In this document: piece by piece, positions 968 through 2,920 of the stretch | How the letters are laid out: each line of letters starts with the position of its first letter | Position numbering within the stretch: position 1 is the stretch's first letter | DNA from: Patescibacteria group bacterium | Lineage (GTDB): Bacteria; Patescibacteriota; Patescibacteriia; UBA10025; JAHIVO01 | Length of the DNA stretch: 38,879 nucleotides | Direction: 5' to 3' | NCBI GenBank assembly: GCA_018816445.1 | Contig: JAHIVO010000014.1 | Location: 1-38,879 of the forward strand | Program-made: the position numbers and the translations under genes | The notes under the pieces: model-generated | Seen by the model: the letters and a program-made list of their open reading frames with translations, nothing else | Databases searched by the model: none | What the model was told of the DNA's origin: nothing

Positions 968-2920
968 ATGAGTAAGATTCTAGGAATTGACCTGGGTACA
1001 ACCAATTCAGCTATGGCCATTATTGAGGGCGGTGAACCCAAGGTATTGGAAAATAAAGAGGGTAACCGTACCACCCCTTCTATGGTGGCAATTTCCAAAA
1101 CAGGCGAACGCGTGGTTGGCCAGATTGCCAAGCGCCAGGCCGTGACTAATCCTGAAAATACAATTTTTTCCGTTAAGAGGTTAATCGGCCGCCGCTGGGG
1201 TGACGAAGAAGTACAGCGTGATGTAAAAACCATGTCGTATAAAATAGTCCAGGCGGGCGAAGGCATTAAAGTAAAAATGGACGGCAAAGAAAACACGCCG
1301 CAGGAAATTTCTGCCATGATTCTGCAGAAAATGAAAGCAGATGCCGAGGAAAAGCTGGGCGAAAAGATTGAAGAAGCGGTTATTACTGTACCGGCTTATT
1401 TTGACGATTCACAGCGCCAGGCTACCAAAGACGCCGGTGAAATTGCCGGCTTAAAAGTCAAGCGTATTATAAACGAACCGACGGCTGCAGCTTTGGCCTA
1501 TGGCTTTGAAAAGAAAAAGAACCAGCAGATTGCTGTTTATGACCTGGGCGGCGGTACTTTTGATATCTCCATTCTGGATGTAGCTACGGATACTGTTGAG
1601 GTTAAATCAACCAACGGCGATACCCATTTGGGCGGCGATGATTTTGACAAGCGGATTATTGACTGGCTGATTGACGAATTCAAGAAAGACCAGGGTATTG
1701 ACTTATCAAAAGACCAGATGGCTCTCCAGCGCCTGAAAGAAGCGGCTGAAAAAGCTAAAGTTGAATTATCAACTTCCCAGGAAACTGATATTAATCTGCC
1801 GTTTGTTACTTCAGATGCAAACGGCCCCAAACACATGAATTTGAAATTATCCAGGGCCAAACTTGAAGATTTGGTCGGCGATTTGATAGAAAAAACCATG
1901 GAGCCGGTTAACAAAGCGCTGGAAGATGCCAACCTGAAAACTTCTGAAATTGAAGAGGTTATTATGGTCGGCGGTATGACCCGTATGCCTAAGGTATTAG
2001 AAACAGTAGAAAAATTCTTTAATAAGAAACCAAACATTAGCGTTAATCCTGATGAAGTGGTAGCTATGGGCGCGGCTGTGCAAGCCGGCGTTTTGCAGGG
2101 TGATGTTAAAGATGTATTGCTATTGGATGTCACTCCGTTAACACTAGGCATTGAAACATTAGGCAGTGTGTCTACTCCGTTGATTGAAAAGAATACTACC
2201 ATCCCAACTTCCAAATCACAGATATTTTCAACTGCCGCTGATAACCAGACTACGGTTGAGATCCACGTACTGCAGGGTGAACGGCCAATGGCTGGGGATA
2301 ACAAGACTTTAGGCAAGTTCATGCTCTCCGGTATTCCACCGGCACCGCGCGGCGTACCTCAGGTTGAAGTATCATTTGATATTGACGCTAACGGAATTCT
2401 AAATGTAAAAGCTCAAGATAAAGCTACGGGCAAAGAACAATCAATTACCATTACTGCATCTTCGGGTTTATCCAAGGATGAAGTAGAAAAAATGAAGCAG
2501 GATGCTAAAGTGCATGAAGCTGAAGACCTGAAAAAGAAAGAAGTAATTGACATTCGCAATAATGCTGAGTCATTGGTCTTTACCGCAGAAAAGGCTCTGA
2601 AAGATGCTGGCAAAAAGGTTGATGATAAGACTAAAAAAGAAATTGAAGATAAGATCAAGGCAGTTAAAGACGTTAAAGATAAAGATGACGCTGAAGCTAT
2701 TAAAAAAGCAACAGAAGAATTGTCTCAAGCTATTCAGAAAATTGGCCAAGCTATGTATAAAGATCAAGGACAATCCGGAGCACAACCTGGTGCTGAAGGT
2801 AAGCCAGAAGATAAAGCTAAGGACGCAAAGGATAAAGGACCGGTAGATGCTGAATATGAGGATGTGAAGAAAGATGGGGATAAATCCGCCCAAGGCGGAT
2901 CCGCCTCGGGCGGAAAATAA
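968..2920 (+). CDS. dnaK: Molecular chaperone DnaK (Hsp70)
   Basis: [58 protein letters not shown] near the C-terminus. Confidence 0.99.
2885..2914. repeat. Tandem palindromic micro-insertion inside the dnaK 3' end (TCCGCC-NNN-GGCGGA x2)
   Basis: TCCGCC caa GGCGGA + TCCGCC tcg GGCGGA, flanked by AAAT (2882-2885 and 2915-2918); encodes [10 protein letters not shown] in frame. Confidence 0.8.

What the first reader, a model, noticed from the sequence alone, without database searches (positions are those of the whole stretch)
2882..2918. In-frame palindromic micro-insertion with an apparent 4-bp target duplication in the dnaK C-terminus
Seen: two 15-nt hairpins TCCGCC-NNN-GGCGGA in tandem, bounded by AAAT...AAAT. 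Removing the insert plus one AAAT (33 nt) leaves ...GAT AAA TAA, an intact frame ending DGDK*. The insert adds [11 protein letters not shown] to a core chaperone. Inference: a very small non-autonomous mobile palindrome tolerated in coding DNA because the net length is a multiple of 3, conceptually like Rickettsia palindromic elements but much shorter.
Basis: partly seen in the sequence, partly recalled or inferred. Interest (0 to 1): 0.7.

Follow-up and report, generated by a model that had tools for sequence, protein, structure and literature searches.

The report
Tiny palindromic insert in dnaK tail
The last ten codons of this groundwater bacterium's dnaK gene are one copy of a 30-base palindromic repeat that is scattered, almost always in the same reading frame, through essential genes of many ultra-small bacteria and some other phyla.

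Summary
Positions 2885-2914 hold two exact 15-nt hairpin units that form one 30-nt nested palindrome just before the dnaK stop codon.

It is not unique:
- This 1.34-Mb genome has 19 exact units and 4 exact doublets, in dnaK, trmD, a UvrD-type helicase and beside a tRNA.
- The doublet occurs in 90 of 401 genomes of the class, with 0 hits for the reversed control. It also occurs in other phyla.

Of 61 doublets in ORFs, 49 read Ser-Ala-x-Gly-Gly twice. Relatives have empty, decayed or half-size alleles at the same dnaK site.

Variant stems change in compensatory pairs, which alters the peptide. The constraint is therefore on the hairpin, not on the protein.

The proposed AAAT target duplication is not supported. 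The insert is 30 nt with no duplication: 125 of 142 copies have none.

The mobilising enzyme is unknown. A link to Y1 transposases is only weak.

This scan has reported similar, longer in-frame hairpin doublets in other CPR genomes. My three literature searches found no published description.

The parts
968..2920 (+). dnaK coding sequence (650 aa) including its stop codon
   Evidence: ORF. The Pfam HSP70 match covers residues 4-598 (E 3e-259), so the insert at residues 640-649 lies in the C-terminal tail beyond the domain.
2885..2914 (.). 30-nt nested palindrome (double-hairpin element), read in frame as [10 protein letters not shown]
   Evidence: Member of a family found in 90 of 401 genomes of the class. 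In three groundwater runs the contig depth rises over exactly this bin: 1771 against about 105 in X1, 44.9 against 9 in X2, 63.6 against 8.7 in X3. Unrelated flanks start at 2885 and at 2916-2918.
2885..2899 (.). unit 1: 6-bp stem TCCGCC/GGCGGA with loop CAA
2900..2914 (.). unit 2: same stem with loop TCG
2882..2884 (+). Lys codon AAA directly 5' of the insert (target flank)
   Evidence: Relatives have AAG or AAA at this position.
2915..2917 (+). Lys codon AAA directly 3' of the insert. It is pre-existing target sequence, not a duplication.
   Evidence: The empty allele of G008 reads gaa aag aaa gag at this site. A at +2 is the family-wide flank preference.
2933..2971 (+). separate strong hairpin followed by a T-run downstream of the stop; the likely dnaK terminator
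   Evidence: RNA fold of 2860-2975. The simple terminator scan did not call it, so this reading is inferred.

Best explanation
The dnaK tail carries one copy of a very small selfish repeat. The repeat is a 30-bp nested palindrome made of two 15-nt GC-rich hairpin units joined at GGATCC. It enters DNA as a precise block without duplicating the target, preferentially where T stands two bases before and A two bases after the junction. Copies multiply within genomes. They survive inside genes only where the frame reads Ser-Ala-x-Gly-Gly twice and the site is a loop or a disordered tail. Here it lengthens the disordered DnaK C-terminus by ten small residues and is most likely translated and harmless. 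After insertion the arms stay complementary through paired changes, and copies can decay, halve or be lost cleanly. Shown: family membership, dispersal, the frame bias, absence of target duplication, empty and decayed alleles, and compensatory stem changes. Inferred: that it moves as single-stranded hairpin DNA through a Y1 (HUH, IS200/RAYT-like) transposase acting in trans. I give that enzyme assignment about 0.3.
For: Dispersal:
- G000 (the window's own genome) holds 19 exact units. About 0.01 are expected from its base composition (GC 39%; my arithmetic).
- G000 holds 16 tandem 6+3+6 doublets, against 0-1 in 5 shuffles.
- The doublet is in 90 of 401 genomes of the class, with the reversed control at 0 of 401. 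Five genomes hold 39-74 single units each.
- At least 126 loci were found in the species-genome collection, including Ignavibacteria contigs of 1.6 Mb.

Copying within genomes: identical loop variants sit at unrelated loci in G121 (3 copies) and G154 (3 copies).

Frame: of 80 distinct doublets, 49 are in phase 0, 7 in phase 1, 5 in phase 2, and 19 lie in no ORF of 120 aa or more. 49 of 61 against one third gives p = 6e-14.

No target duplication:
- 125 of 142 copies have no flanking repeat.
- There are exact 30-nt additions in a tRNA-Glu fragment and in a tRNA-Ser fragment.

Target preference: T at -2 in 81% of half-sites, against a 27% background.

Alleles at the dnaK site:
- G005 has a decayed copy, with 5 of 30 bases changed and the same CAA loop.
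- G004 has a single unit.
- G008, G011, G007, G002 and G014 are empty.
- G013 has an intact copy at a different place in the tail that its congeners G003 and G015 lack.

Constraint on the hairpin:
- The helicase copies in G012 and G008 and the trmD copy in G008 have stems changed in complementary pairs, which alters the peptide.
- In G000 no copy has 1 or 3 mismatches. The 2-mismatch copy and one of three 4-mismatch copies are fully paired.
- Loop 1 ends in A in 133 of 142 copies, whatever the residue encoded.

Y1 transposase: G000 has 7 Y1_Tnp genes over the Pfam cut-off. Y1_Tnp is present in 62 of 90 doublet-bearing genomes against 160 of 311 others. This is my manual cross-tabulation. Fisher p = 0.004, not corrected for relatedness.
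Against: - No transposase is physically linked. None of 20 Y1_Tnp loci (8 in G000, 12 in G347, G045 and G242) has the hairpin within about 1.1 kb; the nearest is about 1.2 kb away.
- 28 of 90 doublet-bearing genomes have no Y1_Tnp hit. These include G080 with 14 doublets and G144 with 10.
- No empty or polymorphic dnaK allele was seen in contigs of four groundwater runs. Contigs drop rare variants, so this is weak.
- Filled alleles at the same codon in three genes are scattered over the family tree: at least 3, 4 and 3 changes. This needs either hot spots or an old insertion with repeated clean loss. If the insertion is old, the perfect state of the G000 copies needs some form of maintenance.
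- Translation of the insert is not shown, because no RNA run was listed.
- An identical 30-mer across phyla is unusual for transposase-dependent repeats.
Confidence: 0.7

Rival explanations
1. The hairpins are host-functional elements rather than selfish DNA. They would act as structured RNA or DNA signals kept by selection, for example mRNA 3'-end protection, ribosome pausing before the stop codon, or a protein-binding site. Copies would be old and no longer mobile.
For: - Stem complementarity is preserved by compensatory changes.
- Same-site copies persist in different genera.
- In dnaK the hairpin sits just before the stop codon and folds strongly as RNA.
- Single units occupy helices of structured RNA and terminator-like stems: RNase P RNA at C85:7134, and C65:7914 and C42:11366.
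Against: - Positions within genes are unrelated to any common landmark. They include mid-gene loops of trmD, helicases and tRNA synthetases as well as tails.
- Sister genomes lack the copies, and copies decay in relatives.
- Copy number ranges from 0 to 14 doublets among similar genomes.
- Identical variants occur at unrelated loci within one genome.
Confidence: 0.15
2. The doublets are by-products of small GIY-YIG nuclease cassettes that invade tRNA genes. The nuclease, not a Y1 transposase, would create or spread them.
For: - In G000, 2 of 10 GIY-YIG genes have a 6+3+6 doublet within 30 nt upstream, inside a displaced tRNA fragment: C48:28303 and C58:19768.
- The same layout occurs in G347, and a GIY-YIG ORF lies 177 nt from the doublet in L080.
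- Only 16 such doublets exist in 1.34 Mb.
Against: - GIY-YIG is in 394 of 401 genomes, so it cannot explain the patchy distribution.
- G008, G014 and G006 have 12-13 GIY-YIG copies and no doublet, whereas G080 has 14 doublets and 3 GIY-YIG genes.
- The tRNA-Glu anticodon loop TTTT-CA simply matches the general target preference, and decaying tRNA fragments are neutral ground where inserts can persist.
- Most copies are far from any GIY-YIG gene (2 of 30 loci).
Confidence: 0.1
3. One reading: a 33-nt insertion event, made of the 29-30-nt palindrome plus a 4-bp AAAT target-site duplication, as with a cut-and-paste DNA transposon.
For: AAAT flanks both sides in dnaK and in the trmD copy of the same genome.
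Against: - Only these 2 of 142 copies show it, and 125 of 142 have no flanking repeat.
- The first T belongs to the conserved stem.
- The 3' AAA is present in an empty allele.
- Exact 30-nt inserts occur in two tRNA fragments.
Confidence: 0.04
4. The sequence is a selected peptide module, a flexible Ser/Ala/Gly linker spread by recombination, with the palindrome incidental.
For: There is a strong bias to the SAxGG frame, and the sites are loops and tails.
Against: - 19 of 80 copies lie outside ORFs.
- Codon third positions that could vary silently are fixed: loop 1 ends in A in 133 of 142 copies.
- Compensatory stem changes alter the peptide, SASGG to SGSAG.
- The same element sits in tRNA fragments and in RNase P RNA.
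Confidence: 0.02

Closest known systems
REP / REPIN elements with RAYT (REP-associated tyrosine transposases)
   Same: Both are short GC-rich palindromes present in many copies. Two inverted units form one long hairpin, as in REPINs (PMC3116915 and PMC3337134, abstracts seen in the listing). Y1 transposase genes are abundant in this genome.
   Different: These copies are mostly inside genes rather than extragenic. There is no spacer between the units. There is no GTAG or CGTC head (title and abstract start of PMC3733652); the flanks are T-rich instead. No Y1 gene is flanked by the hairpin. Copy number is low. The sequence is identical across phyla, whereas the RAREFAN preprint abstract (10.1101/2022.05.22.493013, listing) describes REPIN-RAYT systems as mostly vertically inherited.
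Mitochondrial double-hairpin elements of Allomyces and GC clusters of yeast mitochondria
   Same: Both consist of two adjacent hairpins with conserved stems and variable loops, and both insert in protein and RNA genes at non-critical sites. The Allomyces elements lack flanking duplications and are not removed from transcripts (passages of PMC2800124 citing Paquin et al. 2000). Stems of the yeast GC clusters are more conserved than synonymous sites (passages of PMC4478555).
   Different: The hosts here are bacteria, the sequence is unrelated, and the element is shorter (30 nt against 42 nt for yeast GC42). Yeast GC clusters do have short flanking repeats, AG or ACT.
Rickettsia palindromic elements (RPE)
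   Same: Palindromic repeats inserted in frame in essential genes and translated as extra surface peptide. This is recalled from Ogata et al. 2000, which I did not read here; only lists Rickettsia genome papers that mention palindromic elements.
   Different: By my recollection RPEs are roughly 100-150 bp and confined to Rickettsia. This element is 30 bp and spans several phyla.
IS200/IS605-type single-strand transposition and its hairpin-ended miniature derivatives
   Same: Both have hairpins at both ends, insert without target duplication, and insert next to a short preferred sequence (abstract of PMC6006769 in the listing; the mechanism details are recalled).
   Different: This element has no sequence between or outside the two hairpins to carry guide or cleavage sites. 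The target preference is loose (T at -2). No cognate transposase was identified.
Earlier findings of this scan: in-frame hairpin doublets of 42-53 nt in CPR genes (dnaE, acs, iscS, ligA, tgt, prmC, uvrB, fmt)
   Same: The same kind of hosts, the same in-frame placement in loops of essential genes, and the same repeated use of a given loop (AI notes, not independent evidence).
   Different: Those families were reported beside Y1 transposase genes. This 30-nt family was not. It is shorter and was found well outside CPR.

Membership tests
REP/REPIN-RAYT | Short palindromic repeat dispersed in many copies | tested here: met
   19 exact units in G000 and 39-74 units in five other genomes. The copy number is modest.
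REP/REPIN-RAYT | Extragenic location | tested here: not met
   61 of 80 doublets lie inside an ORF of 120 aa or more, 49 of them in one frame.
REP/REPIN-RAYT | Conserved GTAG or CGTC tetranucleotide at one end | tested here: not met
   The flanks are T-rich (TTT is the commonest half-site, 99 of 284). No GTAG or CGTC is seen. The feature itself is taken from the title and abstract start of PMC3733652.
REP/REPIN-RAYT | A RAYT (Y1) gene flanked by its cognate repeats | tested here: not met
   None of 20 Y1_Tnp loci has the hairpin within about 1.1 kb. 28 of 90 doublet-bearing genomes have no Y1_Tnp hit.
REP/REPIN-RAYT | Two inverted units forming one long hairpin (REPIN) | tested here: met
   The best fold is a single 30-nt hairpin. 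26 of 142 copies are perfect 30-bp palindromes. There is no spacer, unlike REPINs.
Double-hairpin elements (mitochondrial) | Two adjacent hairpins, conserved stems, variable loops | tested here: met
Double-hairpin elements (mitochondrial) | No target-site duplication | tested here: met
   125 of 142 copies have no flanking repeat, and there are exact 30-nt additions.
Double-hairpin elements (mitochondrial) | Sequence homology or shared descent with the fungal elements | not tested
Shared descent is implausible on host grounds.
Rickettsia palindromic elements | In-frame insertion in protein genes, retained in the product | tested here: inconclusive
   The in-frame placement is shown. Translation is not shown, because no RNA or protein data were available.
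Rickettsia palindromic elements | Length about 100-150 bp, Rickettsia lineage (recalled) | tested here: not met
   The element is 30 bp, and the hosts are CPR and other phyla.
IS200/IS605-derived miniature elements | Insertion 3' of a specific short target without duplication | tested here: inconclusive
   Absence of duplication is met. The target is only a preference: T at -2 in 81%, present on both sides in 90 of 142 copies.
IS200/IS605-derived miniature elements | Cognate Y1 transposase that recognises the end hairpins | not testable with these tools
   Y1 genes are present in G000, but there is no linkage and no binding assay.

The most novel reading that the evidence does not exclude
The 30-bp nested palindrome is the smallest mobile DNA yet seen. 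On this reading it has no dedicated transposase, spreads between phyla in groundwater communities, and is inserted, corrected (arm against arm) and cleanly lost by the host's own replication and repair acting on an extruded dumbbell hairpin. Its 15-nt unit length and Ser-Ala-x-Gly-Gly reading would be adaptations to life inside essential genes of gene-dense genomes.
Probability: 0.12. Interest if true: 0.85.

Novelty: new variant of a known kind. Interest (0 to 1): 0.6.

Why it matters
- CPR genomes have almost no intergenic space. A repeat that lives inside essential genes shows how selfish DNA persists in such genomes, and it is a source of the unexplained small insertions in CPR proteins.
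- At 30 bp, with no target duplication and an identical sequence from CPR to Ignavibacteria, it stretches what is known of REP-like elements. It gives a simple substrate for testing which enzyme moves hairpin DNA.
- In practice, such inserts can mislead alignments, gene trees and annotation of protein tails.
- For dnaK itself the insert is probably harmless.

Tried and rejected
- **Target-site duplication:** rejected.
- **Insertion into the centre of pre-existing palindromes:** flank complementarity of 4 nt or more occurs in 5 of 144 copies, against 6.7 expected after random re-pairing of flanks. Rejected as a general rule.
- **Y1 transposase next to copies:** 0 of 96 ORFs around 30 non-phase-0 loci are Y1_Tnp, and none of 20 Y1 loci carries the hairpin close by.
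- **GIY-YIG copy number as an explanation:** no visible relation to doublet counts (compared by eye).
- **Phage carriage:** only 2 matches in the viral contig collection.
- **Rfam:** no family covers the element. The window has only one tRNA at the gathering threshold.
- **RNA evidence:** no RNA holder was listed.
- **Empty dnaK allele in the environment:** contigs of runs X1-X4 show no joint across 2885-2914. Contigs cannot show rare variants.
- **Same element in earlier scan notes, searched by sequence:** nothing found.
- **Simple terminator scan:** it did not call the hairpin downstream of dnaK.
- **Not used:** structure prediction, complex prediction and the large protein searches, because the question did not need them.
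Full report
**The observation.** The dnaK ORF runs from 968 to 2920 and ends ...[25 protein letters not shown]. Its Pfam HSP70 match covers residues 4-598. The last codons therefore belong to the C-terminal tail, which from general knowledge of DnaK is disordered. Positions 2885-2899 and 2900-2914 are two exact copies of the pattern TCCGCC-NNN-GGCGGA. The window holds only these two, against 0.06 expected, and 0 of 100 shuffles had two. Together they form a 30-nt near-palindrome centred on GGATCC. As single-stranded DNA its best fold is one long hairpin of -13.8 kcal/mol, and 0 of 200 shuffles fold as well. 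A separate strong hairpin with a T-run follows at about 2933-2971 and is the likelier terminator, although the simple scan did not call it.

**Not unique in the genome.** The window is contig C16 of a 1.34-Mb, 97-contig genome with GC 39%. That genome holds 19 exact 15-nt units. From base composition I expect about 0.01. Exact tandem doublets occur four times: in dnaK, in trmD (C41:3548), in a UvrD-type helicase with a PD-(D/E)XK nuclease domain (C59:10703), and 21 nt upstream of a tRNA (C93:10989). In the three genes the doublet is read in the same frame, as SA[QRK]GGSA[STS]GGK. A degenerate copy sits in the tail of an S1-domain protein (C39:13924). A variant reading PSQGGPAPGG sits in a 789-aa ORF (C72:15547). 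Counting any two adjacent 6+3+6 hairpins gives 16 in the genome, against 0-1 in five shuffles. They fall into this family and a second one (TCTCCC/TCACCC stems). All 10 copies outside this family, the second family included, lie outside any ORF of 80 aa or more.

**Distribution.** The exact 30-nt pattern, with loops left free, is present in 12 of 41 close relatives. It is present in 90 of 401 genomes sampled across the class, or 73 of 356 high-quality ones, with up to 14 copies per genome. The pattern read backwards gives 0 in all 401. Five copy-rich genomes hold 39-74 single units each. The records are labelled as many CPR groups (Kaiser-, Lipton-, Campbell-, Doudna-, Moran-, Daviesbacteria and others). 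Others are labelled Kiritimatiellae, Omnitrophota, Ignavibacteria, Lentisphaerae, Planctomycetales, Chloroflexota and Dehalococcoidia. Bin labels can be wrong. However, two of the Ignavibacteria hits lie on contigs of 1.6 Mb, inside proteins ending ...GVYFY or ...GIYFY, so the spread beyond CPR is real. Only 2 viral contigs carry the doublet. In contigs of three groundwater runs that hold this dnaK, depth over the bin 2874-2914 jumps: 1771 against about 105 in X1, 44.9 against 9.1 in X2, and 63.6 against 8.7 in X3. Unrelated sequence begins exactly at 2885 and at 2916-2918. The community is therefore full of copies with other flanks. X1 and X2 may be the source of this genome and are not independent.

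**Frame bias.** Among 80 distinct doublets from the species scan, 49 are in phase 0 (SAxGG SAxGG) in the longest surrounding ORF of 120 aa or more. Seven are in phase 1, five in phase 2, and 19 are in no such ORF. 49 of 61 against one third gives p = 6e-14. Most of the twelve off-phase cases lie in the first 30 codons of a stop-to-stop frame or in ORFs without a Pfam match. Because the element is a palindrome whose first loop is purine-rich and second loop pyrimidine-rich, both orientations give the same kind of peptide. All three frames are open, so the bias is best explained by selection: the other frames read PPxADPPxAE or RxRRIRLxR. This step is inferred.

**No target duplication; a flank preference instead.** In 142 distinct copies, 125 have no direct repeat across the element. 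The AAAT...AAAT arrangement occurs in 2 copies, both in this genome. Three comparisons give the size of the event.
- A partial tRNA-Glu copy in G347 differs from the intact gene 360 nt away by exactly the 30-mer, placed between TTTT and CAT of the anticodon loop.
- A partial tRNA-Ser copy in this genome carries an exact 30-nt doublet in the D-loop, here as one variant unit plus one canonical unit.
- At the dnaK site, the empty allele of G008 reads gaa aag aaa gag, so the AAA after the insert was already there.

Flanks are not random. T stands at -2 (equivalently, A at +2) in 81% of half-sites against a 27% background. It is on both sides in 90 copies, on one side in 49 and on neither in 3 of 142. 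The empty sites show that these bases belong to the target, so I read this as an insertion preference. Flanks are not more complementary to each other than randomly re-paired flanks.

**The dnaK site in relatives.** I recovered dnaK from 38 of 41 relatives and read the tails of 30.
- The closest relative, G006 (90% identity over the last 164 residues), and G001 end at ...EEVKK*.
- G011, G007, G002 and G014 continue with a few Asp/Glu/Lys codons and no insert.
- G008 has a long Lys/Glu/Asp tail with an empty site.
- G005 has, at the same place, a copy that differs from the one here at 5 of 30 bases (four in stems, one in a loop). It shares the uncommon CAA loop and reads AAQGGSASEG.
- G004 has a single unit with one stem mismatch (SASGG).
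- G013 carries an intact doublet at a different place, upstream of the conserved GPVDAKYEEVKK. Its congeners G003 and G015 lack it.

The DnaK tail has thus been hit at least twice, and copies can decay or halve.

**Shared sites in other genes.** In the helicase, 4 of 23 genomes are filled within one codon of each other (G000, G004, G012, G008). G002, the sister of G012, is empty. In trmD, 3 of 25 are filled (G000, G009, G008). On a tree of the three concatenated proteins (21 genomes, quick IQ-TREE search, LG+G4, SH-aLRT support only), the filled states need at least 3, 4 and 3 changes, and nearly every filled genome has an empty sister. Either these are hot spots hit repeatedly, or old insertions were lost cleanly many times. 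The shared rare features favour common descent followed by loss: the CAA loop in G000 and G005 dnaK, and the same variant second unit in the G012 and G008 helicases. I cannot decide between the two readings.

**The constraint is on the hairpin.** The helicase copies of G012 and G008 and the trmD copy of G008 have stems that differ from the canonical ones by complementary pairs of changes. The hairpins stay perfect or nearly so, while the peptide changes (SASGG to SGSAG, SAKGG to PRKAG). In this genome the 30-mers closest to the consensus have 0 (4 copies), 2 (1), 4 (3), 5 (2) or 6 (7) mismatches, and none has 1 or 3. The 2-mismatch copy, one 4-mismatch copy and four 6-mismatch copies are fully paired in both units. 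One of the fully paired 6-mismatch copies, C24:5139, has exactly the dnaK loops (CAA, TCG) with three compensatory stem pairs. That suggests the two are related by copying. The last base of loop 1 is A in 133 of 142 copies and the first base of loop 2 is T in 133 of 142, regardless of the residue encoded. The exact stems in that set were imposed by my search pattern and say nothing; the loops and flanks were free.

**Copying within genomes.** G121 has three copies with identical loops. One sits in a gene with unrelated flanks. The other two share about 8 nt of flank on the left and 3 on the right, and may belong to a slightly larger unit. G154 has three copies of one variant in different genes. 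In a Kiritimatiellae-labelled genome the doublet heads a repeat of about 170 nt present four times. In G402 the copies lie in low-complexity AAGGTT/AAGATT repeats. The 30-mer therefore also travels as part of larger units.

**Who moves it.** Earlier notes of this scan on other CPR genomes describe longer in-frame hairpin doublets next to Y1 (RAYT or IS200-like) transposase genes. I treated these as leads and tested them.
- This genome has eight PF01797 matches, seven over the cut-off. None has this hairpin within 500 nt, and several contain in-frame hairpin doublets of other families themselves.
- Of twelve Y1 loci in G347, G045 and G242, one has the hairpin, 1.2 kb away in a tRNA/GIY-YIG region.
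- G080 (14 doublets) and G144 (10 doublets) have no PF01797 match.
- Across the class, 222 of 401 genomes have a match. Comparing by hand gives 62 of 90 doublet-bearing genomes against 160 of 311 others. The odds ratio is 2.1 and Fisher p = 0.004. This ignores relatedness.
- Small GIY-YIG genes are in 394 of 401 genomes, so they cannot discriminate. However, two of ten in this genome, one in G347 and one in L080 have a doublet just upstream. In three of these cases the doublet lies in a displaced tRNA fragment whose loop matches the target preference. The association may therefore be indirect.

The enzyme remains unknown. I lean to a Y1-type single-strand mechanism because hairpin ends, absence of target duplication and a short preferred flank are its hallmarks. 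That is inference.

**Comparison with known elements.** The element works like REP/REPIN elements, like the double-hairpin elements of Allomyces mitochondria and the GC clusters of yeast mitochondria, and like Rickettsia palindromic elements. For the mitochondrial cases I read passages of PMC2800124 and PMC4478555. For REPIN/RAYT I saw only the listing and abstracts. RPE properties are recalled. It fails the tested defining features of REP/RAYT membership: extragenic location, the GTAG/CGTC head, and a flanked RAYT gene. Three full-text searches combining CPR/Patescibacteria terms with palindromic-element, REPIN/RAYT, hairpin-repeat and IS200 terms returned no paper describing such inserts. 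A 2025 REP survey does not mention Patescibacteria or in-frame copies (term search only). Supplements were not examined.

**Verdict.** The target duplication and the 33-nt size are not supported. The dnaK copy is an ordinary member of an unusual family: a 30-bp, in-frame-tolerated, structure-maintained palindrome shared across phyla, with no identified mobiliser.

Noticed in passing
window 2975-3135 and 3627-3751: Two GC-rich direct repeats of about 125-160 nt (78-85% identical in blocks) flank a 160-aa ORF (3166-3648) that has no Pfam match. There is no Rfam hit. This could be a small cassette or an unknown structured RNA.
   Followed up: partly
G000 C48:27553-28332 (L042 553-1333, minus strand); L048 270-1180 (G347): Small GIY-YIG genes sit between a partial 5' copy of a tRNA gene and the intact tRNA (tRNA-Ser here, tRNA-Glu in G347). 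In G347, three 146-nt tandem repeats of hairpin doublet plus tRNA 3' half follow. This looks like a miniature integrative cassette that targets tRNA genes.
   Followed up: partly
G000 C1:851, C31:2603, C51:1697, C59:18596, C59:23053, C93:36913, C96:7858: A second 30-nt double-hairpin family has TCTCCC/TCCCCC and TCACCC stems, which also form GATC at the junction. All copies lie outside ORFs of 80 aa or more. Its phase-0 reading contains TGA in both orientations.
   Followed up: partly
G000 C46:7153-7208, C55:2064-2166, C36:5394-5416, C29:4395-4471: The Y1 transposase-like genes of this genome themselves contain in-frame GC-rich hairpins of other families.
   Followed up: no
G000 C85:7114-7731 (L045 615-1232): The RNase P RNA match spans 618 nt against a 367-position model. 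It carries an exact TCCGCC-CTG-GGCGGA unit just before the conserved GAGGAAAGTCC, where helix P3 is expected.
   Followed up: no
L055 (G004) and L067 (G018) dnaK tails: Another palindromic peptide, GPSASSGPSAG, appears in the DnaK tails of two genera shortly after [16 protein letters not shown] or SASSGS appears further on in G018 and G009. This is probably a different hairpin family using the same tail.
   Followed up: no
L080, L083, L084, L131 (one Kiritimatiellae-labelled genome): The 30-mer is the head of a repeat of about 170 nt present four times. In L080 it is followed by a GIY-YIG ORF.
   Followed up: partly
L110, L123, L154 (Ignavibacteria-labelled genomes): The doublet sits at the same place in homologous proteins ending ...GVYFY or ...GIYFY in three genomes. 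This is another shared site, outside CPR.
   Followed up: no
L002 and L143: In two genomes the doublet is flanked on both sides by AAAAGTCAAAAGTC-like repeats. In L143 the second loop is TAG, a stop in the usual frame, and the long ORF runs in another phase.
   Followed up: no
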